Positions 32,772 to 64,000 of a stretch of 64,000 bases of DNA are shown piece by piece. The position numbers were made by a program, and so were the translations under genes. How positions within the stretch are numbered: the stretch's first letter is position 1; each line of letters starts with the position of its first letter. The stretch spans positions 1,302,001 to 1,366,000 of the forward strand of contig JAWMAR010000392.1 of the NCBI GenBank assembly GCA_036785375.1. Direction: 5' to 3'. The notes under the pieces are model-generated. The model had not been told where the DNA came from. It did no database searches and worked only from the letters and a program-made list of their open reading frames with translations. Source of the stretch: Leucoraja ocellata. Taxonomy: Eukaryota.

Positions 32772-33527
32772 CTATTGACGCCCCTGTCTCCCTGTCACTG
32801 GGGCCCCTTGGTAGGAATGACCGGCGTCCAGAAGGTCCAGCCTCAGCTCGCACACATAGATGTTGGTGACCCAGGATAGCAGGGCCAGTCCGGGCATGGG
32901 ATCGGCGTCCCTGGTCATCCGAAAGCCCTGGGCTAGATAGAGCCGGATGGCGGGCTGCTGGACGGTGGAGGTGTACAGGACACACTCCCGGTAGCCGCTG
33001 TCCCGGGCGAACTCCAGCACCCGGCGGGTCAGTCTGCAGCCCAGCCCCAGACCCCGGCATCGCCGGTCCACCGAGAGGCGGAGGAGCTGGCAGCAGCCCG
33101 GCTGTCCCTCGGCCTTCTGTGCTGCCACCACCCCTCGCAGCCCACCGTCTCCCCCCTCCTCCTCCACCACCCAGAACCCCGACCCCGGCCTCCCCATGTA
33201 GGTCCCCTCAATGTCCGCCATGTCCCCCTCCAGCTGCTGCTTCACGTACCCGGCGTATATCAGGCGGCAGGCCAGGTACAGGAGGGCTAGCAGCGCGGCG
33301 ACGGGCAGAGCGGCCCAAGCCAGCGGCCAGCCGGCTCCGTAGACAGCGGCCCCGGTAGCCAGAAGGAGACAGTGCACGGCGGGCGACTGCAGGGCCCGGC
33401 GGAATGCCGGCCAAGGGAGATCCAGCAAACCCTCCGAGAAGATCCTGCGGGCCTCCGGTGTGTCGCCGGCCCGGAACGGGCGCACGGTGAAGCGGGGACC
33501 CCCTCCAGCCTTGTAGGCGGCCGACAT
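32772..33527 (-). CDS. nat8: NAT8/camello-like GNAT N-acetyltransferase, 251 aa, single coding exon
   Basis: Kozak GGACCATG; hydrophobic membrane segment (LLLATGAAVY...LLALLYLAC); DMADIE..Y...SGFWV; acetyl-CoA motif A RCRGLGLG; LYTS..QQPAIRLY...GF; (CT)n-CAG acceptor ending at 33595. Symbol denotes the family; orthology not established. Confidence 0.88.
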   Translation of the reverse strand: MSAAYKAGGGPRFTVRPFRAGDTPEARRIFSEGLLDLPWPAFRRALQSPAVHCLLLATGAAVYGAGWPLAWAALPVAALLALLYLACRLIYAGYVKQQLEGDMADIEGTYMGRPGSGFWVVEEEGGDGGLRGVVAAQKAEGQPGCCQLLRLSVDRRCRGLGLGCRLTRRVLEFARDSGYRECVLYTSTVQQPAIRLYLAQGFRMTRDADPMPGLALLSWVTNIYVCELRLDLLDAGHSYQGAPVTGRQGRQ

Positions 33528-33884
33528 GGTCCAGGGAGCCGCTGGGAGGTTGTGGAGGAGGTGCTTCGGCCAGAGGAAGGGGAGGTGTCTGGATCTGCAG
33601 AGCGAGAGAGAGAGAGAGAGAGAAACATCAAGTGAGGCAGAGGTCCCAGGGCTGCCAACTCTCACGCAATTCATATAACCATATAACAATTACAGCACGG
33701 AAACAGGCCACATTGTACGGGCTTGTTGGACTAGGGCAGTTGCTAAATTCAGCTCCCAGCATGGATCACAATAATGGAACAGAGCACATAGAACAGTACA
33801 GTACAGCACATGAATGTGCCCTTCAACCCACAGTGTCTGTGCCGAACATGATGCCATGATCATCACTTATCTGCCTGTCCATAA

Positions 33885-35699: not shown

Positions 35700-38170
35700 T
35701 GACCCCCCCACCCCACCCCACCCCCACACTCCCGCCACTCCCCACACTCCCCCCAACCCCCCCCCCACTCCCCCCAACCCCCCCACACTCCCCCCAACCC
35801 CCCCCCAACCCCCCCCACACTCCCCCCAACCCCCCCCCCCACACTCCCCCCACTCCCCCCAACCCCCCCCACACTCCCCCCAACCCCCCCCCACACTCCC
35901 CCCAACCCCCCCCCCCCACTCCCCCGCCCACACTCCCCCCAACCCCCCCCCACACTCCCCCCAACCCCCCCCACACACTCCCCCCCCCCACACTCCCCTC
36001 AACCCCCCCCCCCCCACTCCCCCCCCCACTCCCCCCCCAACCCCCCCGCCACACTCCCCCCAACCCCCCCCACACTCCCCCCAACCCCCCCCCCCACACT
36101 CCCCCCCCCAACCCCCCCCCACTCCCCCCCCACACTCCCCCCACCCCCCCCCCCCCACTCCCCCCAACCCCCCCCCCACACTCCCCCCAACCCCCCCCCC
36201 CCACTCCCCCCCCCACCCCCCCCCCACTCCCCCCCCACTCCCCCCCCAACCCCCCCCCCCACACTCCCCCCAACCCCCCCACACTCCCCCCCCCACACTC
36301 CCCCCACCCCCCCCACACTCCCCCCAACCCCCCCCCCACACTCCCCCCCCCCACACTCCCCCCAACCCCCCCACACTCTCCCCAACCCCCCCCCCCACAC
36401 TCCCCAACCCCCCCCCACACTCCCCCCAACCCCCCCCCCCCCCACACTCCCCCAACCCCCCCCCACACTCCCCCCAACCCCCCCCACACTCCCCCCAACC
36501 CCCCCCCCCCCCCCACACTCCCCCCAACCCCCCCCACACTCCCCCCAACCCCCCCAACCCCCCCCACACTCCCCCCAACCCCCCCAACCCCCCCCACACT
36601 CCCCCCAACCCCCCCCCCACACTCCCCCAACCCCCCCCCCACACTCCCCCCAACCCCCCCCCACACTCCCCCCAACCCCCCCCCCACACTCCCCCCCAAC
36701 CCCCCCCCCACTCCCCCGCCCACACTCCCCCCAACCCCCCCCCACACTCCCCCCAACCCCCCCCACACTCCCCCCAACCCCCCCCCACACTCCCCCCAAC
36801 CCCCCCCCCACACTCCCCCCAACCCCCCCACTCCCCCGCCCACACTCCCCCCAACCCCCCCCCACACTCCCCCCAACCCCCCCCACACTCCCCCCCCACA
36901 CTCCCCCCACTCCCCCCCCCACACTCCCCCCAACCCCCCCCCCACTCCCCCCCCCACACTCCCCCCCAACCCCCCTCCACACTCCCCCCACTCCCCCCCC
37001 ACACTCCCCCCCAACCCCCCCCCCCACTCCCCCAACCCCCCCCACACTCCCCCCAACCCCCCCACACTCCCCCCAACCCCCCCCCACACTCCCCCCCCCA
37101 CACTCCCCCCAACCCCCCCCCACACTCCCCCCAACCCCCCCCCCACACTCCCCCCAACCCCCCCCACTCCCCCCAACCCCCCCCCCACTCCCCCCAACCC
37201 CCCCCCACTCCCCACAACCCCCCCCCCCACACTCCCCCCAACCCCCCCCACTCCCCCCAACCCCCCCCCACACTCCCCCCAACCCCCCCCCCACACACTC
37301 CCCCCAACCCCCCCCCACACACTCCCCCCAACCCCCCCCCCCACACACTCCCCCCAACCCCCCCCCCCCCACACACTCCCCCCAACCCCCCCCCCCCACA
37401 CTCCCCCCAACCCCCCCCCCACACACTCCCCCCCCCCACACACTCCCCCCAACCCCCCCCCCACACACTCCCCCCCCCACACACTCCCCCCAACCCCCCC
37501 CCCACACACTCCCCCCAACCCCCCCCACACTCCCCCCAACCCCCCCCCCCACACACTCCCCCCAACCCCCCCCCACACTCCCCCCAACCCCCCCCACACT
37601 CCCCCCAACCCCCCCCACACTCCCTAACCCCCCCCACACTCCCCCCAACCCCCCCCCCCACACTCCCCCCAACCCCCCCACACTCCCCCCCCAACCCCCC
37701 CCCCCCCCACACACTGCCCCCAACCCCCCCCCCCACACTCCCCCCAACCCCCCCCACACTCCCTAACCCCCCCCACACTCCCCCCAACCCCCCCCCCCAC
37801 ACTCCCCCCAACCCCCCCACACTCCCCCCCAACCCCCCCCCCCCCACACACTGCCCCCAACCCCCCCCCCACACTCCCCCCAACCCCCCCCACACACTCC
37901 CGCCACTCCCCCCCCCCCACACTCTCCCCACCCCGCCCCCCCCACACACGACCTCACCCCCCCCCCACACTCCCTCCAACCCCCCCCCCCCCCACACACT
38001 CCCCACAATCCCCACCCCCCCACACACTACCTCACCCCCACACTCTCCCCGCCCCCCACACTCTCCCCAACCCCCCCCCCCCCACACTCTCCCCAACCCG
38101 TCCCCCCCCCCCCACACACGACCTCACCCCCCACACTCCCCACACTCAGCACAACCACCACACTCCCCCC
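35700..38170. repeat. C-rich minisatellite, ~20-bp unit C(n)ACACTC(n)AA
   Basis: Over 100 degenerate units with variable C-run lengths. Confidence 0.95.
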
Positions 38171-39990: not shown

Positions 39991-40338
39991 NNNNNNNNNN
40001 NNNNNNNNNNNNNNNNNNNNNNNNNNNNNNNNNNNNNNNNNNNNNNNNNNNNNNNNNNNNNNNNNNNNNNNNNNNNNNNNNNNNNNNNNNNNNNNNNNNN
40101 NNNNNNNNNNNNNNNNNNNNNNNNNNNNNNNNNNNNNNNNNNNNNNNNNNNNNNNNNNNNNNNNNNNNNNNNNNNNNNNNNNNNNNNNNCAAAACGTCAC
40201 CCATTCCTCTCTCCAGAGATGCTGCTTGTCCCGCTGAGTTATTCCAGCATTTTGTGTCTAGCTTCGAGCTCAAAGACTTTTTCTTCACGGGACGTTTCCT
40301 TCATTGACATGCACCCAACCCCGTGTCCCGAGACCTCC

Positions 40339-41057
40339 TCAGTCGGGATGACCGGCGTCCAGAAGTCCAGCCTCATCTCGCACTGGTAGATGTTGGTGAC
40401 CCAGGATAGCAGGGCCGGTCCGGGCATGGGCTCGGCGTCCCTGGTCAGCCGAAATCCCTGGGCTAGATAGAGCCGGATGGCGGGCTGCTGGACGGTGGAG
40501 GTGTACAGGACACACTCCCGGTAGCCGCTGTCCCGGGCGAACTCCAGCACCCGGCGGGTCAGTCTGCAGCCCAGCCCCAGACCCCGGCATCGCCGGTCCA
40601 CCGAGAGGCGGAGGAGCTGGCAGCAGCCCGGCTGTCCCTCGGCCTTCTGTGCTGCCACCACCCCTCGCAGCCCACCGTCTCCCCCCTCCTCCTCCACCAC
40701 CCAGAACCCCGACCCCGGCCTCCCCATGTAGGTCCCCTCAATGTCCGCCATGTCCCCCTCCAGCGTCTCCCTCAGGTAGCGGGCAAAGACCATGCGGCAG
40801 GCCAGGTAGAGGAGGGCTAGCAGCGCGGCGACGGGCAGAGCGGTCCCAGGTGAGCGGCCAGCCGGCTCCGTAGACGGCGGCCCCGGCAGTCAGGATCAGG
40901 CAGGCCGCGGCTGGCGACTGCAGGGCCCGGCGGAAGGCCGGCCAAGGCATGTCCATCACACCATCGGAAAATATCCTGCGGGCCTCCGGCGTGTCGCCGG
41001 CCCGGAACGGGCGCACGGTGAAGCGGGGACCATCTCCGCCTTGTGGACGACCGCCAT
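40339..41057 (-). pseudogene. Tandem NAT8-like paralog with three 1-bp indels (pseudogene or assembly errors)
   Basis: ATG at 41057; -1 at ~41038, +1 at ~40845, -1 at ~40365 relative to the intact copy; 40456-40764 identical to 32926-33234. Confidence 0.8.
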
Positions 41058-52041: not shown

Positions 52042-52093
52042 ATGTTGCTGCTACTCGGTGCCTTGTGTCTATGCCTTCCCTGGGCATGTTCGG
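52042..52093 (+). CDS. MHC class I heavy chain exon 1 (signal peptide MLLLLGALCLCLPWACS)
   Basis: Hydrophobic leader ending in A-x-S; phase-1 donor G|GTAAGT; joins in frame to 61837 (G+AG=Glu); lies just downstream of the SXY module. Confidence 0.8.
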
Positions 52094-52205
52094 GTAAGTG
52101 GAGTTCATTTCTCTAGCCTTCTCAACCCAGCAACCCTGGAGAACAGCAACAGGCCCCATTTCGGGTCGAGACCCTTAGTATGAAAAAGTGGAGAGCCAGG
52201 TCAAA

Positions 52206-53022
52206 GGTACACAAAATGCTGGAGAAACTCAGCGGGTGCAGCAGCATCTATGGAGCGAAGGAAATGGGCAACGTTTCGGGCTGAAATCCTTCTTCATACT
52301 GGTGGGGGATGGGGGTGGGAGGCGGGAAGGAGAATGGAAAAAGGAGGAGGAGGAGCCCGAGGGCTGAGGAAGGGGAGGAGACAGCAAGGGCTAACAAAAT
52401 TGGGAGAATTCAATGTTCATGCCCCCTAGAAGATTGAGAGGGGATCTTATAGAAACTTACAAAATTCTTAAGGGGTTGGACAGGCTAGATGCAGGAAGAT
52501 TGTTCCCGATGTTAGGGAAGTCCAGGACAAGGGGTCACAGCTTAAGGATAAAGGGGAAATCCTTTAAAACCGAGATGAGAAGAACTTTTTTCACGCAGAG
52601 AGTGGTGAATCTCTGGAACTCTCTGCCACAGAGGGTAGTTGAGGCCAGTTCATTGGCTATATTTAAGAGGGAGTTAGATGTGGCCCTTGTGGCTAAGGGG
52701 ATCAGGGGGTATGGAGAGAAGGCAGGTACGGGATACTGAGTTGGATGATCAGCCATGATCATATTGAATGGCGGTGCAGGCTCGAACGGCCGAATGGCCT
52801 ACTCCTGCACCTATTTTCTATGTTTCTAATATGAGGTGCTGTTCCTCCAATTTCCGGTGTTGCTCGCTGTGGCCATGGAGGGGACCCAGGACGGAGATGT
52901 CGGATGTGGAATGGGAGGGGGAGTTGAAGTGCTGAGCCACCGGGAGGTCAGCTTGGTTATAGCGGACCGAGCGGAGGTGTTCGGCGAAGCGATCGCCCAA
53001 CCTCCGCTTGGTCTCACCGATG
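52206..53022 (-). mobile_element. Penelope-like element family B 3' end (GIY-YIG endonuclease plus hammerhead repeat), split by CR1-A at 52426-52828
   Basis: RRLGDRFAEHLRSV...LPVAQHFNSPSH...RKLEEQHLI; terminal repeat matches the 90-nt elements. Confidence 0.8.
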
Positions 53023-53122
53023 TAAATGCGTGGCAGGTAATAAATAGGTCAACCTGAATTTGCGAAAGATATAATCATAGATTTATAGAGTACAAGAGCA
53101 GGCCCTATGGCCCACCCTGTCT

Positions 53123-54039
53123 ATAGTGGGGATGCACGTAAGGTCACTGGGTCATAGGGCGTGACGCACGGAGCCGCTCAATACATCTGGAGGACATCCG
53201 TAACTTCTGGTACATGTTATTAATGCAAGAAACGCGTATTTTCCTACCTGTTAAAAACCGCCTAAATGTTGAATTTTTGCGCTGAAAAAAATTGTTCAAG
53301 TCGGGGTAAGTGTGAGAGACACGTACCCAACTTTAGAATTCCAAACGTGAAGCGAAATGAAGGTAAAGAGAAGCGAGAACTGAAGGGACAACAACAGCTA
53401 AAGTGTTTAACAAACATTGGCCGTGCAGATATCAGAATCGAAAATATTGGGAATTATCACGTTTGCTCACTGCATTTCATCAACAGTAAGGCATATTTTG
53501 GGTTTTTTCTTGATTCCTTTGGTATCTAAAAAGTCTCAGACTTATCTAAAAGTGATAAATCTGGCTGTAAATTTTTCTTCAGATGCGTTTTCATTTTGTA
53601 AGTAAAAACCCACTTGAGAACCATGGGCGATTTAAAAAATTTACAGCCAGATTTGTCGCTTCTGAAACTTGTTAGATGCCAAAGGAATCAAGAAAAAACA
53701 CAAAACAATGGGCCTTAGTTGATGAAATGCAGTGAGCAAACGGCCAATGTTCGCCAAGCACTCTGGCTGTTGTTGTCTCTTCAGCTCTCGCTTCTGTCTA
53801 CCGTAATTTCTCCTCACTTTTGGAATTCTGAAGTAGGATAAATGTCTCTCACGCTTATCCCGATTTCCATAATTATTTACAGCGCAAAAATTGACAATTT
53901 CAGCGGGTTTTAACGGGCCCACTACGCAGGAAACAATGGTCAGTGCCGACCTGCAGTTCATCGTGTGTAATCCACTTGGCGTAGCGTAGCAACAGTACGG
54001 GTCATGGGTCGTGACCTGACTACCGTGAAACCTCCCTAT
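53123..54039. mobile_element. Palindromic non-autonomous DNA element made of two inverted THAP-domain remnants (ISL2EU/PIF-Harbinger-like)
   Basis: ATAG...CTAT termini with imperfect TIRs; plus arm FCAEKNC...FRIP...VCSLHF; minus arm FCAVNNY...YFRIPKV. Confidence 0.65.
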
Positions 54040-54149
54040 GCTGTTTATTGTGTTCCCATCTTTACTAGAGTTATACAACAAGGAAACGGACCCTTCGGCG
54101 TAACTCCTTCATTCCCAGAAGCTGCCCCATCTAAGTTAGTCCCACTTAT

Positions 54150-54753
54150 AATAACCATATAACCATATAACAATTACAGCACGGAAACAGGCCATCTCGA
54201 CCCTTCTAGTCCGTGCCGAACACATAATCTCCCCTAGTCCCATATACCTGCGCTCAGACCATAACCCTCCATTCCCTTCCCATCCATATAACTATCCAAT
54301 TTATTTTTAAATGATAAAAACGAACCTGCCTCCACCACCTTCACTGGAAGCTCATTCCACACAGCCACCACTCTCTGAGTAAAGAAGTTCCCCCTCATGT
54401 TACCCCTAAACTTCAGTCCCTTAATTCTCATGTCATGTCCCCTTGTTTGAATCTTCCCTACTCTCAGTGGGAAAAGCTTTTCCACATCAACTCTGTCTAT
54501 CCCTCTCATAATTTTAAAAACCTCTATCAAGTCCCCCCTTAACCTTCTGCGCTCCAAAGAATAAAGCCCTAACTTGTTCAACCTTTCTCTGTAACTTAGT
54601 TGCTGAAACCCAGGCAACATTCTAGTAAATCTCCTCTGTACTCTCTCTATTTTGTTGACATCCTTCCTATAATTAGGCGACCAAAATTGTACACCATACT
54701 CCAGAATTGGCCTCACCAATGCCTTGTACAATTTTAACATTACATCCCAACTT
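54150..54753 (-). mobile_element. CR1 LINE family B
   Basis: ORF 54234-54830; tail. Confidence 0.9.
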
Positions 54754-55327
54754 GCCATGTTTGTCCCACATCCCTTTAAAATGTTCCTCCCCAAGTACCT
54801 GACTAAGTATCTTTTAAATGCAGTTACCATGCCTGCCTCGATTACCTCCTCCGGCAGCTGGTTCTATATACTACCACCCTCTGAGTGAAAAAGACAGCCC
54901 TCAGGTCCATATTAAATATATCCCTTCTCACTTTGAACATATATACTCTTTTTGATTCCCCTACCCTCGGTAAAAAAAACTCTACGTGCATTATGTCTAC
55001 TCCCCTCATGATTTTATGCACGCCATAAGATCACCCCTCAGCCTGCAATCTGAAAAATAAATTAGAAAATGTTGCAAGTACCCGGAGTCATACTGCATGG
55101 AAACAGGATGTTTGGCCCAACTTGCCCAAGGCGACCAACATGCACCATCTTCACTAGTCCTACCTTCCTGCGTTTGGCTAATATCCCTCTGAACCTTTCC
55201 TATCTGTGTACCTGTCCAAAAGTCTTTTACATGTTGTTATAGTACCTGCCTCAAATACCTCTTTTGGAAGCTTGTTCCATATAGCCATCACCTTCTGCAT
55301 GAAAGTGTTGCCCCTCAGATTCCTACA

Positions 55328-55625
55328 AGCACGGTGGCGCAGAGCTGCTGCTTTACAGCGCCAGAGACATTGGTTCAATCCTGACTATGGGTGCTGTCTG
55401 TATGCAGTTTGTACATTTTCACCGTGACCGTGTGGGGTTTTTCGGGAGCTCTGGTGTCCTCTCACATCCCAAAGACATACAGGCTTGTGTGTGTTAATTG
55501 GCTTTGGTACCAATTGTAAATTGTCCCTAGTGTGTAGATAGTGCTAGTGTATGTTGATCGCTGGTCGGCACGGACTCGGTGGGCCGAAGGGTCAGTTCCC
55601 ACTCTGTATCTCTAACCTAAACTAA
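55328..55625 (+). mobile_element. tRNA-derived SINE
   Basis: GCACGGTGGCGCAG head, GGTTCAATCC B box, SINE body and CTAAA tail. Confidence 0.7.
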
Positions 55626-56007
55626 ATTAATCTAAAAAAATTATTTCCCCTCTCACCTGACACCTATGCCCTCCTGATTTCCTGATTCCTATACTCTGGG
55701 TAAAGAATCTGTGCATTCACCCCATCTATTCCCCTCATGATCTAGTGCCCCTCTTTAAGATCACCCCTCAACCTCCTGTGCTAACCCTAACCCTAACTCT
55801 AAAGTCCAACCTCTCCATGTAGCTCAGCCCCTCAAGTCTGAGCAACATCCTCGTAAATCATCTCTGTGGTCTTTATAACTTAATGACATCCTTCCTATAG
55901 CCAAACTCCAAATATATCCTCTCCCAACGTCTTATACAACGTCTTAATATATCATCCCAACTTCTATGGTCAATATAGATAATTAAAGCTGTAGTTACTC
56001 AGTGGGT

Positions 56008-56330
56008 CTTTGAGAATAGGGAAGATTCAAACAAGAGGACATGACTTCAGAATTAAGGGACAGAAGTTTAGGGGTAATATGAGGGGGAACTTCTTTACTC
56101 AGAGAGTGGTAGCGGTGTGGAATGAGCTTCCAGTGGAAGTGGTGGAGGCAGGTTCATTGGTATCATTTAAAAATAAATTGGATAGGCATATGGATGAGAA
56201 GGGAATGGAGGGTTATGGTATGAGTGCAGGCAGGTGGGACTAAGGGGAAAAAAAATTTGTTCGGCATGGACTTGTAGGGCCGAGATGGCCTGTTTCCGTG
56301 CTGTAATTGTTATATGGTTATATGGTTATA
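56008..56330 (+). mobile_element. CR1 LINE family B 3' end
   Basis: ORF 56010-56243; tail. Confidence 0.9.
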
Positions 56331-56352
56331 TATGGGTCATATGACAGCATAT

Positions 56353-57100
56353 AGACACAAAATGCTGGAGTAACTCAGCGGGACAGGCCGTATCTCTGGA
56401 GAGAAGGAATGGGTGATGTTTTGGGTTGAGACCCTTCTTCAGACTGAGAGTCAGGGGAGAGGGAAATGAGAGATATAGACAGTGATATAGGGAGATGTAG
56501 AACAAATGAATTCAAGATATGTTAAAAGTAACAATGATGAAGGAAACAGGCCATTGTTAGTTAGATGAAAATGAGTATCAACATTGAGACTCAACAAGAT
56601 GACTTTGGAGCTGGTATGTCTTGGGGCGAGAGAGGGATGGAAAGAGAGGTGATGCAAGGGTTACTTGGTTAGAGAAATCAATAATCATACCACTGGATTA
56701 TAAGCTAACTAAGCAAAATATGAGATGCTCACATTCCAACTCCAATTTGCATTTGGCCTCACTCTGACAATGGAGGAGACTGAGGACAGAAAGTTCAGTG
56801 TGGGAATGGAAATGGGAAGGGCAAGTGTTTGGCAACCGGGAGATCAGGTAAGTCCAGGTGGACTGAGCGAAGGTGTTCAGCGAAACGATCGCCCAGTCTA
56901 CATGGCGCCTTTGCATTCATGTGGCCCCAAAAATGAGTTACGGACAATGAGACTCAACAAGACGACCTTGTCTTGTTGACAAATTTGAAGAAAGTCTTGA
57001 CCCGAAACGTCACCATTCCTGCCATCCAGAGATGTTGCCCGTCCTCCAGCATTTTGTGTATATCTTCGGTGTAAACCAGCATCTAAAGTTCTTTCCTACA
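56353..57100 (-). mobile_element. Penelope-like element family A 3' end (degenerate GIY-YIG) with inverted terminal repeat
   Basis: RLGDRFAEHL...SHTELSVLSLLHCQSEAKCKLE...HLIFCL; hammerhead repeat at 56353-56445 and inverted at ~56985-57100. Confidence 0.75.
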
Positions 57101-57159
57101 CAAGACGATTTTGATACTAGTATAAAGACATTGGGGGGGGGGGGGGGGGGGGGGAGAAG

Positions 57160-57850
57160 TACAACGGGATCTAAGGGTCCTTGTACATCAGTCTATGAAA
57201 GTAAGCATGCAGGTACAGCAGGCAGTGAAGAAAGCGAATGGCTTGTTGGCCTTTATAACAAGAGGAATCGAATATAGAAGCAAAGAGGTCCTTCTGCAGT
57301 TGTACAGAGCTCTAGTGAGACCACACCTGGAGTATTGTGTGCCGTTTTGGTCCCCTAATTTGAGGAAGGACATTCTTGCTATTGAGGGAGTGCAGCGTAG
57401 GTTTACAAGGTTAATTCCCGGCATGGCGGGACTGTCATATGCTGAGAGAATGGAGCGGCTGGGCTTGTATCTCATTGAAACATATAAGATTGTTAAGGGT
57501 TTGGACACGCTAGAGGCAGGAAACATGTTCCCGATGTTGGGGGAGTCGAGAACCAGGGGCCACAGTTTAACAATAAGGAGCAAGCCATTTAGAACGGAGA
57601 CGAGGAAACACTTTTTCTTACAGAGAGTGGTGAGTCTGTGGAATTCTCTGCCTCAGAGGGCGGTGGAGGCAGGTTCTCTGGATGCTTTCAAGAGAGAGCT
57701 AGATAGGGCTCTTAAAAATAGTGGAGTCAGGGGATATGGGGAATAGGTAGGAACGGGGTACTGATTGGGGATGGTCACCCATGATCACATTGAATGGCGG
57801 TGCTGGCTCGAAGGGCCGAATGGCCTACTCCTGCACCTATTGTCTATTGA
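57160..57850 (+). mobile_element. Older CR1-A-related LINE
   Basis: ORF 57195-57746. Confidence 0.85.
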
Positions 57851-58685
57851 CCATCCTATCTACCCGTGATGCCACTTCATGGGAACAATGTACCTGTACT
57901 CCTAGGCCCCTCTGCTCTACATCACTCCCCAGAGGCTTGTGTTCACCGTTAAGATCCTGCCATGATTTGACTTCTCAAAGTGCAGCAAATTGCATTCTAC
58001 CAGTTTATTTACCAGCATTTGGTTCATTACCTTTTGTGCCTTGGCAATTTGGTTCTTTACCCAGATGTTGTGAGAATCGCCTCTCAGGCATTGTCTTCCA
58101 GATTCCAAACACCCTCTGAATCCTCGATAAGTACTTGCTCCTTATTTTAAACCTACGCCTCCTTATTTAGAGTCGGAGTCAGAGTCAGAGTCAATTTAAT
58201 TGTCATTTGGACCCCTGGAGGTCCAAACGAAATGCCGTTTCTGCAGCCATACATTACACACAAATAGACCCCAGACACAACATAATTACATTTTACATAA
58301 ACATCCATCACATAGCTGTGATGGAAGGCCAAAAAAACTTATCTCTCCACTGCACTCTCCCCCCCCCGATGTCAGAGTCAAAGTCAAAGCCCCCGGCTGG
58401 CGATGGCGATTGTCCCGCGGCCATTGAAGCCACGCCGGGTGGTGCGAGGTCGGTGCGAGTCTTCATTATGAGAAACGTTTCTTACTCTCAATCCTATCTA
58501 TGCCTCTCATAATGTTGTACGCCTCCATTAGTGTTCCCCCTTCACATTCCACTGCTCCAAGGAAAGTAAACCCAGCCTCTCTGGACTCTCCTCACAACAG
58601 CTTCATCCCAGGCAACATCCTGATGAATCTCCTCAGTGCTTTCTCTAATGTAGCCACATCTTTCAGTAGTGTGGAGACTATAGAG

Positions 58686-58947
58686 CCTCTGTCCCACTTA
58701 GGAAACCTGAACGGAAACCTCTGGAGACTTTGCGCCCCACCCAAGGTTTCCGAGCGTTCCCGGAGGTTTTTGTCAGTCTCCCTACCTGCTTCCACTACCT
58801 GCAACCTCCGGCAACCACCTGCAACCTCCGGGAACCGCTTGGAAACCTTGGGTGGGGTGCAAAATCTCCAGAGGTTTCCGTTCAGGTTTCCTAAGTGGGA
58901 CAGGGGCATAATGCCCCTGTCCCACTTAGGAAACCTGAACGGAAACC
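58686..58947. mobile_element. Palindromic MITE type 1 plus partial tandem copy
   Basis: Same TIRs; second copy starts at 58912 and is cut by CR1-B. Confidence 0.8.
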
Positions 58948-59697
58948 ATATAACCATATAACCATATAACAATTACAGCACGGAAACAGGCCATCTCGAC
59001 CCTTCTAGTCCGTGCCGAACACATAATCTCCCCTAGTCCCATATACCTGCGCTCAGACCATAACCCTCCATTCCCTTCCCATCCATATAACTATCTAATT
59101 TATTTTTAATTGATAAAAACGAACCTGCCTCCACCACCTTCACTGGAAGCTCATTCCACACAGCTACCACTCTCTGAGTAAAGAAGTTCCCCCTCATGTT
59201 ACCCCTAAACTTCAGTCCTTTAATTCTCATGTCATGTCCCCTTGTTTGAATCTTCCCTACTCTCAGTGGGAAAAGCTTTTCCACGTCTATCCCTCTCATA
59301 ATTTTAAAAACCTCTATCAAGTTCCCCCTTAACCTTCTGCGCTCCAAAGAATAAAACCCTAACTTGTTCAACCTTTCTCTGTAACTTAGTTGCTGAAACC
59401 CAGGCAACATTCTAGTAAATCTCCTCTGTACTCTGTCTATTTTGTTGACATCCTTCCTATAATTAGGCGACCAAAATTGTACACCATACTCCAGAATTGG
59501 CCTCACCAATGCCTTGTACAAATTTAACATTACATCCCAACTTCTATACTCAATGCTCTGATTTATAAAGGCCAGCACACCAAAAGCTTTCTTTACCACC
59601 CTATCTACATGAGATTCCACTTTCAGGGAACTGTGCACAGTTATTCACAGATCCCTTTGTTCACCTGCATTCTTCAATTCCCTACCATTTACCATGT
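58945..59697 (-). mobile_element. CR1 LINE family B
   Basis: ORF 59033-59638; tail. Confidence 0.9.
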
Positions 59698-60177
59698 AAA
59701 ACCTGTGGAGACTTTACATTTTCACCTCTCTGTTTTAATAATTTTCTTCCAATGGAGATGGAGTCGAAGCTGGGTCCCGACCTGAAACGCCGCTTGCCCC
59801 CCACAGATACTGCCTGGCCCACTGAGTTACTCCAGCATTTTGTGTTTTGCTCAGGATTCCAGCCTCTGCAGTTCCTGGTGTCTCCATTGAGATGAAGGCG
59901 TTCATTTCTTGAACTTTCTCTGCCCGTTCGGTTGGATAAACTTGGATTGTGTTCTCCGAAACATTGGAGGTTGAAGGGAGGTAGATGAAATCATGACTCT
60001 TAGACAGGGTAGATAGACACAGAACCTTCTTCCCAGAGTTAACATATCCAATACTAGAGGGCATAGCTATAAGGTGAGAGGGGGAAAGATTAATGAAGAT
60101 AGGCTGGGTAAGAATTTTACACAGAGGGTGGTTGGTGCCGGGAACGCACTGTTAGTGGTGGTGGTGCGTTCCCGGCA

Positions 60178-60728
60178 ATTGCGTACAGTTTTGGTCTCCA
60201 AATCTGAGGAAGGACATTATTGCCATAGAGGGAGTGCAGAGACGGTTCACCAGACTGATTCCTGGGATGTCAGGACTGTCTTATGAAGAAAGACTGGATA
60301 GACTTGGTTTATACTCTCTAGAATTAGAAGATTGAGAGGGGATCTTATAGAAACTTACAAAATTCTTAAGGGGTTGGACAGGCTAGATGCAGGAAGATTG
60401 TTCCCGATGTTAGGGAAGTCCAGGACAAGGGGTCACAGCTTAAGGATAAAGGGGAAATCCTTTAAAACCGAGATGAGAAGAACTTTTTTCACGCAGAGAG
60501 TGGTGAATCTCTGGAACTCTCTGCCACAGAGGGTAGTTGAGGCCAGTTCATTGGCTATATTTAAGAGGGAGTTAGATGTGGCCCTTGTGGCTAAGGGGAT
60601 CAGGGGGTATGGAGAGAAGGCAGGTACAGGATACTGAGTTGGATGATCAGCCATGATCATATTGAATGGCGGTGCAGGCTCGAAGGGCCGAATGGCCTAC
60701 TCCTGCACCTAATTTCTATGTTTCTATG
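60178..60728 (+). mobile_element. CR1 LINE family A
   Basis: ORF 60332-60637; tail. Confidence 0.9.
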
Positions 60729-60973
60729 GTGGAGGCAAATACTATAGTGCCATTTAAGAGGCTTTTAGGTAGGCACTTGTAAGTGAAAATAATAGAGGGA
60801 TATGCCCCATGTACAGGTAGATTAGATCAGTTTAACTTGGCATCAGGTTTGGCACAAACATTGTGAGTCCAAGGGCCTGGTCCTGTAATGTACTATTCTA
60901 TGTTCCATGTTCGTTTAGTTGGGGAATGGCGGGCAGGAGATAGAGGAGGGGAGATGTGTGGAAAGTCGGCACC

Positions 60974-61785
60974 ATTTAATGCTGATAAGTGTGAGGTGCT
61001 ACATCTTGGCAGGACAAATCAAAATAGGACGTACATGGTAAATGGTAGGGAATTGAAGAATATAGGTGAACAGAGGGATCTGGGAATAACTGTGCACAGT
61101 TCCCTGAAAGTGGAATCTCATGTAGATAGGGTGGTAAAGAAAGCTTTTGGTGTGCTGGCCTTTATAAATCAGAGCATTGAGTATAGAAGTTGGGATGTAA
61201 TGTTAAAATTGTACAAGGCATTGGTGAGGCCAATTCTGGAGTATGGTGTACAGTTTTGGTCGCCTAATTATAGGAAGGATGTCGACAAAATAGAGAGAGT
61301 ACAGAGGAGATTTACTAGAATGTTGCCTGGGTTTCAGCAACTAAGTTACAGAGAAAGGTTGAACAAGTTAGGGCTTTATTCTTTGGAGCGCAGAAGGTTA
61401 AGGGGGGACTTGATAGAGGTTTTTAAAATGACGAGAGGGATAGACAGAGTTGACGTGGAAAAGCTTTTCCCACTGAGAGTAGGGAAGATTCAAACAAGGG
61501 GACATGACATGAGAATTAAGGGACTGAAGTTTAGGGGTAACATGAGGGGGAACTTCTTTACTCAGAGAGTGGTGGCTGTGTGGAATGAGCTTCCAGTGAA
61601 AGTGGTGGAGGCAGGTTCGTTTTTATCATTTAAAAATAAATTGGATAGTTATATGGATGGGAAGGGAATGGAGGGTTATGGTCTGAGCGCAGGTATATGG
61701 GACTAGGGGAGATTATGTGTTCGGCACGGACTAGAAGGGTCGAGATGGCCTGTTTCCGTGCTGTAATTGTTATATTATATTATAT
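60974..61785 (+). mobile_element. CR1 LINE family B
   Basis: ORF 60888-61706 from FNADKC onward; tail ends ~50 bp before the alpha-1 acceptor. Confidence 0.9.
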
Positions 61786-61836
61786 TTTATTACCATGTTA
61801 TCTCATTCTAAGGTTGTGTTGTGTTGTGATTTACAG

Positions 61837-62100
61837 AGACACACTCACTGCAATATTACTACACCTCGATGGTCGGGAGTGTGGACCTTCCTGAGTTTGT
61901 GCACATCGGAGTGCTGGATGGCGTTCAGATAACCTACTTTGACAGCAAAACCGAGGAGGACATTGCACGCCAGCCATGGATGGAGAGAGCCCTGGGAAGT
62001 GACTACTGGGACAAGGAGACCCAGAGATTGATCAATCGACACAAGTTGTACATGGCCAATGTCCAGATCGCAATGCAACGATCTAACCACAGCAAGATGG
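61837..62100 (+). CDS. MHC class I heavy chain exon 2 (alpha-1 domain)
   Basis: TTTACAG acceptor and G|GTGCGT donor, phase 1/1, 264 bp; (E)THSLQYYYT...PEFV.IGVLDG...YFDS...RQPWM...DYWDKETQ...RSNHS with the N86 glycosylation site. Confidence 0.92.
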
Positions 62101-62131
62101 GTGCGTGCATTCCCAGTGCTTGATTCACACG

Positions 62132-62808
62132 GCATTCAGATTCAGATTCAATCTTTATTGCCATTGTGCAGTGTACAGTACAGAGACCACAAAATGCAGT
62201 TAGCATCTCACCCAGAAGAGCGAACATAGAATAATGAGCAATAAGTATATATATGTACATACAGTAGTGGTAGTGTAATTTTTTCTGGGGGAAGGAGTGT
62301 CCGTGGGGGTGGGTGAGTGGCAGTCACCGAGGTACAGTGTTGAGCAGTGTAACAGCCACTGGGAAGAAGCTGTTCCTGGACCTACTGGTTCGGCAACGGT
62401 GAGACCTGTAGCGCCTCCCAGATGGTAAACAGTCTATGGCTGGGGTGAGAGCAGTCCTTGGCAATGCTGCACGCCCTTCGCAGACAACGCTTGCTTTGGA
62501 CAGACCCAATGGAGGGGAGTGAGGAACCGGTGATGCGTTGGGCAGTTTTCACCACCCTCTGCAATGCTTTCCGGTCGGAGACAGAGCAGTTGCCATACCA
62601 TACTGTGATAGAGTTGCTAAGGATGCTCTCGATGGTGCAGCGGTGGTAGTTCACCAGAATCTGAGGAGGCAGATGGACCTTCTTCAGTCTCCTCAGGAAG
62701 AAGAGACGCTGGTGAGCCTTCTTGACCAGAGTTGAGGTATTGTGGGTCCAAGAGAGGTCATCGGAGATGTTGACCCCCAGAAACCTGAAGCTGGAAACAC
62801 GTTCCACT
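62132..62808 (-). mobile_element. Rex1/Babar-like LINE 3' part
   Basis: ORF 62382-62807 (KKAHQRLFFLRRLKK); (AATCTG)n tail; same family as 19210 and 24295. Confidence 0.85.
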
Positions 62809-63829
62809 CATGCCATGGGCAATGGTGTGCACAGACATGTTAGCAGTTCAGTGTAGTTTAGAGATACAGCGTGAAAACAGGCCCTTCGGCCCAGCAAGTC
62901 CGCAACGCCTATTGACCCATACACCTGTACTTCTTTGGGGTGTGGGAGGAAACCGAACATCGCGTAGAAAATCCACACAGGTCACGGGGAGAACGTAAAC
63001 CTTCTCTGACCTCTTCATCAGTTTTTCTCTTCCTTCCAAGAGCAGGGTGACCAAAACTCCAAATCAGTCATTCGAGGAATGCCAGCATAATGAAGGATGA
63101 GTCTCACCCCAGTCATTCCCTCTTCTCCCCTTTCCCGTTTGGCAAGAGGCACGGAAGTGTGAAAATGCACACCGCCTGAATCAGGGACAGTTTCTTCAAA
63201 GGCTGTTTAGAGAGAATTGAGCCATTCTAACACCAACTAGATAGCAGGCCGGAGTCACCACCTATCTCATTGGAGACCTTCGGACTATCTTTAATTGAAC
63301 TAAACATTATTCCCTTTATCTGTACACTATCGCCTTTTTGCTGATTGGATAGCATGCAAGAAAAAGCGTCTTAATATACCTCAGTATTCTTGAGGTGTAT
63401 AAAATCGTGAGGGAAATAGGTCGGGTATACTAACAGAGTCTCTTGCTCAGAGCAGGGGAATCGAGAACCAGAGGACATAGGTTTAAGCTAAAGGGGGGAA
63501 AGATTCAATAGGAATCTGAGGGGTAACTTTTTCACTCATGGGTGTATGGAATGAGCTGTCAGAGGAGGTTGTTGATGTCAGGATGATTGCAACGTTTAAG
63601 AAACAATGAGATGGACCGATGGATAGGTCAGGTTTAGAGTGATATAATAATAATAATTGTTTATAGGGACAGTGCATATTAATTAACATTTGCATGTAAA
63701 TATGCAAGATTGTAGCCAATCAGTAGCTAATTTCCGTCTCTAGTCCCAGGCAAAGGTAGGTGGAAGTGTCTTGCCCAAGGACACAACGACAGTACACACT
63801 CCAAGCAGGATTCGAACCAGCCGAACACT

Positions 63830-64000
63830 TAACCATATAATAACCATATAATAATTACAGCACGGAAACAGGCCATCTCGGCCCTACAAGTCCGTGCCGA
63901 ACAAATTTTTTTCCCCTTAGTCCCACCTGCCTGCACTCATACCATAACCCTCCATTCCCTTCTCATCCATATGCCTATCCAATTTATTTTTAAATGATAC
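63830..64000 (-). mobile_element. CR1 LINE family B 3' end (runs off the window)
   Basis: Tail and AGRWD-type end. Confidence 0.85.

What the first reader, a model, noticed from the sequence alone, without database searches (positions are those of the whole stretch)
52042..62100. MHC class I heavy chain with a 9.7-kb TE-filled first intron and an atypical alpha-1 that keeps peptide-anchor residues
The leader (missed by the ORF track) splices in frame to a 264-bp alpha-1 exon: MLLLLGALCLCLPWACS/ETHSLQYYYTSMVGSVDLPEFVHIGVLDGVQITYFDSKTEEDIARQPWMERALGSDYWDKETQRLINRHKLYMANVQIAMQRSNHSKM. Y7, Y59, E63, R84 and N86 equivalents are retained. However, GVLDGVQITYFDS departs from the usual classical GYVD..F..YDS, which suggests a non-classical or distinct lineage. 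I cannot assign the lineage from sequence alone.
Basis: partly seen in the sequence, partly recalled or inferred. Interest (0 to 1): 0.7.

Follow-up and report, generated by a model that had tools for sequence, protein, structure and literature searches.

The report
Skate UDA nonclassical MHC class I
This is the first two exons of a skate's UDA gene, an already described immune gene of sharks and rays that likely displays a small fixed set of molecules to immune cells; its long repeat-filled first intron is ordinary for this region.

Summary
The 52-bp leader (52042-52093) and 264-bp alpha-1 exon (61837-62100) flank a 9,743-bp GT-AG intron and join in frame. Five more exons lie just past the window, giving a 383-aa class I heavy chain. 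It is UDA, a published cartilaginous-fish class Ib lineage: alpha-1 matches the published little-skate UDA at 85 of 88 residues, the protein falls in the UDA clade (99/99), and it sits after a BET (likely BRD2) gene and beta-2-microglobulin as in sawfish. The 'atypical' motif is the lineage signature. Anchors Y7, Y59, R84, T143, K146, W147, Y159, Y171 are kept, and 31 of 44 groove positions are invariant in 16 UDA proteins. A surplus base in the assembled alpha-3 exon is absent from both allele contigs of the best-matching public run, so it is likely an assembly error. The intron is 85% repeats, like the other five introns (72-89%). The ligand remains unknown; a narrow, probably acidic peptide-type ligand is inferred. 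Side leads: an alpha-3-skipped form and a skate/ray tail motif resembling an endosomal signal.

The parts
52042..52093 (+). Exon 1, signal peptide (17 codons + 1 base, phase 1)
   Evidence: 16 of 17 residues identical to RefSeq little-skate orthologue P0014
52094..61836 (+). Intron 1, 9,743 bp, GT-AG, 85% interspersed repeats, about half LINE ORF2-like fragments on both strands
61837..62100 (+). Exon 2, alpha-1 domain (264 bp)
   Evidence: 85 of 88 residues identical to published Leer_UDA (compared by eye)
62101..64000 (+). First 1,900 bp of intron 2 (2,335 bp in all). The gene continues beyond the window on G000:C392 (+): exon 3 alpha-2 1366436-1366711; exon 4 alpha-3 1375798-1376074 (277 bp as assembled, one surplus base, likely an assembly error); exon 5 TM 1381357-1381488; exon 6 1384867-1384896; exon 7 tail and stop 1386290-1386411

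Best explanation
This is the seven-exon UDA gene of a skate, a non-classical MHC class I heavy chain that is likely intact and single-copy and would pair with beta-2-microglobulin and likely present a narrow, conserved set of peptide-type ligands. Shown: exon structure, lineage, gene order, retention of eight terminus-binding residues, near-invariance of the groove across sharks and rays, spliced alpha-2/alpha-3/TM contigs in three public runs. Inferred (about 0.6): the chain folds in the ER with beta-2-microglobulin, binds a short peptide by both ends as classical class I does, but because the other groove residues are frozen (H24, D45, R66, R70, Y97, R114, K156) it selects one kind of ligand, probably with acidic side chains, and shows it to a fixed receptor on innate-like T or NK-type cells. 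Intron 1 grew by ordinary LINE/SINE insertion like its neighbours.
For: Alpha-1/2/3 are 85/88, 90/92 and 82/92 identical to the sequences labelled little-skate UDA in the supplement of PMC10751288 (by eye). P0032 (QGX07421.1, nurse shark non-classical class I) equals the supplement's Gici_UDA in alpha-1 and groups with the window protein: UDA side of a branch 99/99, window sister to L. erinacea P0014 99/88. Other class I alpha-1 exons in G000 are only 35-42% identical and the alpha-3 exon has 1 DNA match in the genome. Order BET gene(-), beta-2m(-), this gene(+), UFA-like gene(+) on C392 mirrors sawfish BRD2(-), B2M(-), MHC-Ib(+). Groove: 31 of 44 positions invariant in 16 UDA proteins against 34 of 136 other alpha-1/2 positions (Fisher p 1.4e-7); in matched trios 27 of 35 non-anchor groove positions are identical in UDA against 12 of 35 in UAA-like, with the rest of alpha-1/2 alike (70 vs 73 of 136). 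None of the 9 variable alpha-1/2 columns among 13 skate cluster members is a groove position. AlphaFold model of P0014 gives a standard class I fold, target-normalised TM 0.86-0.93 to solved class I chains in the top ten. Run X1 carries two allele contigs across the surplus base, one with the assembly's own SNP letter, and both lack the base (39.3 of 39.3 depth).
Against: As assembled, the gene is frameshifted before the TM exon; the correction rests on assembled contigs of one genomic-type run (X1, which may be the assembly's own sample) plus X2, X3, X8, not raw reads. The defining UDA paper (PMC7002201) could not be read. No ligand, tissue or expression-level data were obtained. The 44 groove positions are a recalled HLA-A2 list mapped through the published alignment; sequences are related, so the Fisher p overstates independence. 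Genome searches score only the best candidates, so single copy is a lower bound.
Confidence: 0.93

Rival explanations
1. An undescribed class I lineage of cartilaginous fish.
For: Databases name these proteins only generically ('F10 alpha chain-like', 'Q10 alpha chain-like'); no listed solved structure above 35% identity.
Against: 85 of 88 alpha-1 residues equal published little-skate UDA; UDA clade 99/99; same gene order as sawfish.
Confidence: 0.01
2. UDA, but a pseudogene or null/secreted allele in this animal because of the alpha-3 frameshift, which would remove the transmembrane segment.
For: Exon 4 is 277 bp instead of 276; the assembled reading leaves frame about 7 codons before the exon end and stops in exon 6.
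Against: The surplus base lies in a short C run; both allele contigs of X1 and the contigs of X2, X3 and X8 lack it; all splice sites are canonical and no other lesion was found.
Confidence: 0.04
3. UDA works like MR1 or HLA-E/Qa-1 in role but binds a non-peptide ligand (phosphorylated or acidic metabolite) or serves as a ligand-independent stress or self marker.
For: Frozen groove with 6 basic and 8 aromatic residues among 35 non-anchor positions; Y74 and R70 could crowd the middle of the groove (inference); MR1 chains are among the fold matches, below classical class I.
Against: All eight terminus-binding residues are kept (invariant in 16 of 16 except Y59 14 of 16 and K146 15 of 16), which is hard to explain without a bound peptide backbone; the reportedly lipid-binding lineages UFA and UGA have lost several of them.
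Confidence: 0.3
4. A classical (UAA) class I gene.
For: Anchor residues kept; linked to beta-2m; nearest solved sequences are fish and shark class I chains.
Against: 36-42% identity to the UAA-like alpha-1 exons of the same genome on C563 and C541; separate clade; groove not variable.
Confidence: 0.01

Closest known systems
Chondrichthyan MHC class Ib UDA (Leer-UDA, Gici-UDA QGX07421.1; Almeida et al. 2020 J Immunol 204:892, title seen in reference lists, text not held; sequences from supplement of PMC10751288)
   Same: 85/88, 90/92, 82/92 identity to Leer_UDA by domain; same clade; same motif G[VLM]LD.[VL][QP]ITY[FY]D (15 of 15 UDA proteins checked); single copy next to beta-2m and a BET gene.
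   Different: Only species-level substitutions. The coding exons span 32.4 kb here against a 12.2-kb gene in sawfish. Two GNAT acetyltransferase frames lie between beta-2m and UDA here; the sawfish list shows a zinc-finger gene there.
Classical class Ia UAA of sharks and skates (PDB 6lup; UAA-like P0039, P0052, P0036)
   Same: Same fold and domain plan; same eight anchors and also L123 in the three stored proteins.
   Different: About 35% identity; variable groove in UAA; GYVD motif; shorter cytoplasmic tail.
Teleost Z (ZE) lineage (Teni_Z in the same supplement)
   Same: Non-classical class I with a G.LD..I.Y.DS-type motif and R84; conserved peptide-type groove across species (recalled). A functional analogue.
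   Different: Groove residues differ in the published alignment; orthology was not tested because no Z protein was identified in my tree.
Shark class Ib UFA and UGA (CD1-like; PDB 9ch4 = UGA)
   Same: Same MHC-Ib cluster for UFA; a UFA-like gene is the next class I gene found, about 132 kb downstream.
   Different: They lack several peptide anchors and are reported to bind lipids (PMC12562908, passage citing a personal communication).
HLA-E/Qa-1 and MR1 (roles recalled)
   Same: Non-polymorphic class I with restricted ligand; possible role model.
   Different: About 30% identity for MR1; no orthology shown.

Membership tests
MHC class I heavy chain | Leader, alpha-1, alpha-2, alpha-3 (C1-set), TM and cytoplasmic exons, phase-1 junctions | tested here: met
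   Pfam MHC_I and C1-set on orthologue P0014
MHC class I heavy chain | Class I fold with the alpha-2 and alpha-3 cysteine pairs, N86 sequon | tested here: met
   model of P0014; invariant cysteines; sequon
MHC class I heavy chain | Association with beta-2-microglobulin | not tested
   no complex job sent: a textbook pair would pass by likeness to solved structures
UDA lineage | Sequence identity and monophyly with published UDA | tested here: met
   (by eye)
UDA lineage | Single or low copy number in elasmobranchs | tested here: met
   1 close alpha-1 match of 7 and 1 alpha-3 DNA match in G000; lower bounds
UDA lineage | MHC linkage, in the class Ib cluster next to brd2 and beta-2m | tested here: met
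   beta-2m exon C392:1274617-1274970 and BET gene C392:1220099-1232391; the BET paralogue was not resolved by sequence, BRD2 is inferred from order
UDA lineage | Eight of nine terminus-binding residues kept (feature recalled from Almeida 2020) | tested here: met
   Y7 Y59 R84 T143 K146 W147 Y159 Y171 kept, 123 is L; L123 also in three UAA-like proteins, so it is not diagnostic
UDA lineage | Groove residues conserved across species | tested here: met
UDA lineage | Mono- or oligomorphic within a species (recalled) | tested here: inconclusive
   9 of 169 columns vary among 13 cluster members, none in the groove, but species are unknown, clustering caps divergence, and the UAA-like control cluster varied as little (7 of 179)
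UDA lineage | Restricted tissue distribution and low expression (recalled) | not testable with these tools
   only contigs were served; spliced contigs show transcription, not level
Classical class Ia (UAA) | Clade with UAA | tested here: not met
Classical class Ia (UAA) | Variable peptide-binding positions | tested here: not met
Teleost Z lineage | Orthology to Z genes | not tested
   Z sequence seen only in the supplement alignment; not among stored proteins by name

The most novel reading that the evidence does not exclude
Skate and ray UDA is an endosome-cycling class Ib molecule: a [DE]xxxML tail motif found in 8 of 8 batoid proteins and 0 of 7 shark proteins would route it through endosomes, where its frozen basic groove loads one conserved acidic ligand for innate-like lymphocytes, and an alpha-3-skipped splice form (P0004) would act as a beta-2m-independent variant like MR1B or short HLA-G forms.
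Probability: 0.15. Interest if true: 0.55.

Novelty: already known. Interest (0 to 1): 0.13.

Why it matters
The gene itself adds nothing new: UDA is published for sharks, skates and chimaeras, with a little-skate sequence nearly identical to this one. The useful outputs are a correct lineage label, a complete exon map, a likely assembly error that could make annotators call a pseudogene, and one more batoid confirming the brd2 - beta-2m - UDA - UFA block. The open question, what a class I groove frozen since sharks and rays split actually binds, is not answered by this locus; it would matter for the origin of innate-like T-cell and NK recognition.

Tried and rejected
1) The two primary papers (PMC7002201 UDA; PMC8454915 UEA) are not held; their content is marked as recalled. 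Three literature searches found only PMC10751288, reviews and teleost papers; the 'UDA' of the PMC6523485 and PMC9586880 passages is a salmonid or duck gene of the same name, unrelated. 2) An 800-870-aa two-ectodomain class I protein, suggested by NCBI models P0002, P0005, P0050: rejected as gene-model fusions of UDA with the next gene (UFA-like); the linker is not homologous between ray and sharks (E 0.46 and 0.66) and its counterpart here holds a stop. Read-through in the two carpet sharks, whose linkers are 67% alike, is not excluded. 3) A special role for intron 1: no enrichment of repeats or length over other introns; 0 of 11 intron ORFs had a Pfam match; the downstream UFA-like gene has a first intron of about 10.8 kb. 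4) look-up of sequencing runs: no RNA holder listed on record; no evidence either way. 5) First read-laying run on 4.2 kb was swamped by repeats; the second used the exon only, so no call was left for the leader junction. 6) ZIP-family search for slc39a7 gave no hit on C392 (27 matches elsewhere); uninformative. 7) One row of alignment A1 (L029:238-510) was out of frame and was ignored; later alignments left it out. 8) Only 76 frames, picked by length from about 660 candidates in the 434-kb flank, were scanned against Pfam, so the neighbour list is incomplete. 9) Three look-ups in earlier findings returned nothing. 10) complex prediction, the search of protein representatives and the atlas were not used: the family was already clear.
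Full report
OBSERVATION. Alpha-1 matches solved class I chains, best a bony-fish chain at E 2e-20. The intron is 9,743 bp and GT-AG. The window is G000:C392:1302001-1366000. By similarity the animal is a skate; I did not determine the species.

THE REST OF THE GENE. In 200 kb fetched downstream, tblastn with homologues found alpha-2, alpha-3, TM and tail exons, and a scan found a 30-bp cytoplasmic exon. In continued window coordinates: 64436-64711, 73798-74074, 79357-79488, 82867-82896, 84290-84411; all six introns are GT-AG. Exon 4 is 277 bp, one base too long, so the assembled frame breaks before the TM exon; read with X at the break the product is 383 aa. Public runs were found with exon 4 (23 listed, none on record as RNA). 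In run X1, the best holder (0.88 of words, possibly the assembly's own sample), two contigs of depth 20.5 and 18.8 cross the site; they differ at a SNP 12 bases upstream, one carrying the assembly's letter, and both lack the surplus base (39.3 of 39.3). Contigs of X3 and X8 and X2 lack it too. It is most likely an assembly error in a short C run. Loose ends of contigs in X18, X3 and X8 read into the end of exon 3 or the start of exon 5, that is, spliced transcripts. It is supported by RefSeq models of two skates with nearly the same leader and the same junction and by a protein from a 1,195-base Logan contig, P0031, that runs from leader to alpha-3. Against: P0003 and P0004 begin at the internal Met of alpha-1 and the other 11 Logan members listed in the skate cluster have P0003's length, which I cannot explain beyond start-codon choice or contig breaks.

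LINEAGE. The supplement of Verissimo et al. 2023 (PMC10751288; I saw passages of the text, and supplement parts 18, 97, 98 and searches) lists reference domains of chondrichthyan class I lineages. By eye, the window protein equals little-skate UDA at 85 of 88 (alpha-1), 90 of 92 (alpha-2) and 82 of 92 (alpha-3, X counted as a difference) residues. Against RefSeq L. erinacea P0014 the computed figures are 86/88, 90/92, 85/92, and against nurse shark P0032 (QGX07421.1, whose alpha-1 equals the supplement's Gici_UDA) 54/88, 54/92, 44/89. In an IQ-TREE tree of 36 rows, the 13 rows labelled UDA, the window protein and four unlabelled rows form one side of a branch at 99/99, apart from five UAA-like rows (100/99), ten teleost rows and three UFA-like halves; the tool flags a long-branch join for the UFA-like rows, which does not bear on the window protein's place among the skate rows. 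No Z, CD1, UBA, UCA or UEA row was knowingly in the tree.

COPY NUMBER AND PLACE. The alpha-1 search gave 7 matches in G000, the other six at 35-42% identity; they read as UAA-like (C563, C541), UGA-like, UFA-like and one further class Ib type when set beside the supplement. Exon 4 has one DNA match. On C392 a BET-family gene lies at about 1.220-1.232 Mb (minus), a beta-2-microglobulin exon at 1,274,617-1,274,970 (minus), UDA from 1,354,042 (plus) and a UFA-like gene from about 1.518 Mb (plus). Sawfish has BRD2(-), B2M(-), then the MHC-Ib gene named like P0006 (+), 75 kb from B2M, followed by more MHC-Ib genes. The paper states that UDA is single copy in a cluster flanked by brd2 and beta-2m. 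One bromodomain exon did not resolve BRD2 from BRD3/4.

THE INTRON. 85% of intron 1 has another copy within 434 kb; introns 2-6 give 73, 79, 85, 89 and 72%, three 10-kb control stretches 100, 71 and 68%. 4,569 of 9,743 bp match LINE ORF2-like frames taken from the region, two of which are continuations of RT-positive frames rather than Pfam hits themselves. Intron 3 is 9,086 bp and the neighbour gene's first intron about 10.8 kb. The coding span is 32.4 kb against a 12.2-kb sawfish gene: the whole gene is longer, not this intron alone.

MECHANISM. Using HLA-A2 numbering read off the published alignment and a recalled list of 44 groove positions, Y7, Y59, R84, T143, K146, W147, Y159 and Y171 are kept; 123 is L, as in three UAA-like proteins. 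31 of 44 groove positions are invariant in 16 UDA proteins from skates, rays and sharks, against 34 of 136 other alpha-1/2 positions and 22 of 92 in alpha-3. In trios matched by taxon (two skates and a bamboo shark), 27 of 35 non-anchor groove positions are identical in UDA and 12 of 35 in UAA-like proteins, while the remaining alpha-1/2 positions are alike (70 and 73 of 136). Among 13 skate cluster members 9 of 169 columns vary, none in the groove, but the UAA-like control cluster varied as little (7 of 179), so this does not test polymorphism. The AlphaFold model of P0014 (mean pLDDT 77; mostly 85-97 over the ectodomain) is a standard class I fold; best matches are chicken, shark and bony-fish class I and shark UGA, at 29-35% identity, and no UDA structure appeared among the listed matches. 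Inference: a peptide-type ligand held by both ends, with fixed pockets; 6 basic against 3 acidic residues among the 35 positions point to an acidic ligand. The receptor and cell type are unknown. A review names UDA among single-copy shark MHC-Ib genes and reports lipid binding for UFA and UGA from a personal communication (PMC12562908, passages). The defining paper (Almeida 2020) was not held; its claims of eight of nine anchors, low polymorphism and low, tissue-restricted expression are recalled, and it or its supplements may already cover the tail motif and splice forms noted here.

SIDE LEADS. A [DE]xxxML motif occurs in the tail of 8 of 8 batoid and 0 of 7 shark UDA proteins (one shark record is partial); its likeness to dileucine sorting signals is recalled, not tested. 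P0004, on 5 Logan contigs, is UDA lacking exactly the 92-residue alpha-3 exon.

VERDICT. Observation confirmed; identity settled as UDA (about 0.97); gene likely intact; intron ordinary; ligand mechanism inferred at about 0.6. Already known; interest 0.13.

Noticed in passing
window 32772-33689 (-) and 40239-40889 (-): Two GNAT acetyltransferase frames (Pfam PF00583, E 7e-13 and 3e-13; NAT8/camello-like by recall), 90% identical as DNA over 801 bp, between beta-2m and UDA; the sawfish gene list shows no such gene there. Local duplication, near N stretches of the window.
   Followed up: partly
L028:553 (G000:C392 about 1,376,052): One surplus base in UDA exon 4 of the assembly, absent from both allele contigs of run X1; likely an assembly error that could cause a pseudogene call.
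   Followed up: yes
G000:C392 about 1,518,150-1,551,360 (+), L023-L026: UFA-like (CD1-like) class Ib gene, first intron about 10.8 kb; NCBI models of three species (P0002, P0005, P0050) fuse UDA with this neighbour.
   Followed up: partly
P0004 (Logan, 5 contigs): Skate UDA protein lacking exactly the alpha-3 exon, in frame to the TM exon; possible splice isoform.
   Followed up: partly
UDA last exon, G000:C392:1386290-1386411: [DE]xxxML motif in 8 of 8 batoid and 0 of 7 shark UDA tails; possible endosomal sorting signal.
   Followed up: partly
L014:4924-9124, L019:2725-7236, L020:4771-7780 (all -): Three elements with long open reverse-transcriptase and tyrosine-recombinase frames (DIRS-type retrotransposons by anatomy) between UDA and the UFA-like gene.
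   Followed up: no
window 35700-38075: 2.3-kb degenerate C-rich low-complexity tandem array (77% C) between the GNAT copies.
   Followed up: no
G000:C563, C2088, C541, C588: Other class I genes: UAA-like on C563 and C541, UGA-like and another class Ib type on C563 with near-identical copies on C2088, and a stop-containing alpha-2 on C588.
   Followed up: partly
L033:2617-2970 (-) and L037-L039 (-): Beta-2-microglobulin exon and a BET-family gene 79 kb and about 122 kb upstream of UDA.
   Followed up: yes
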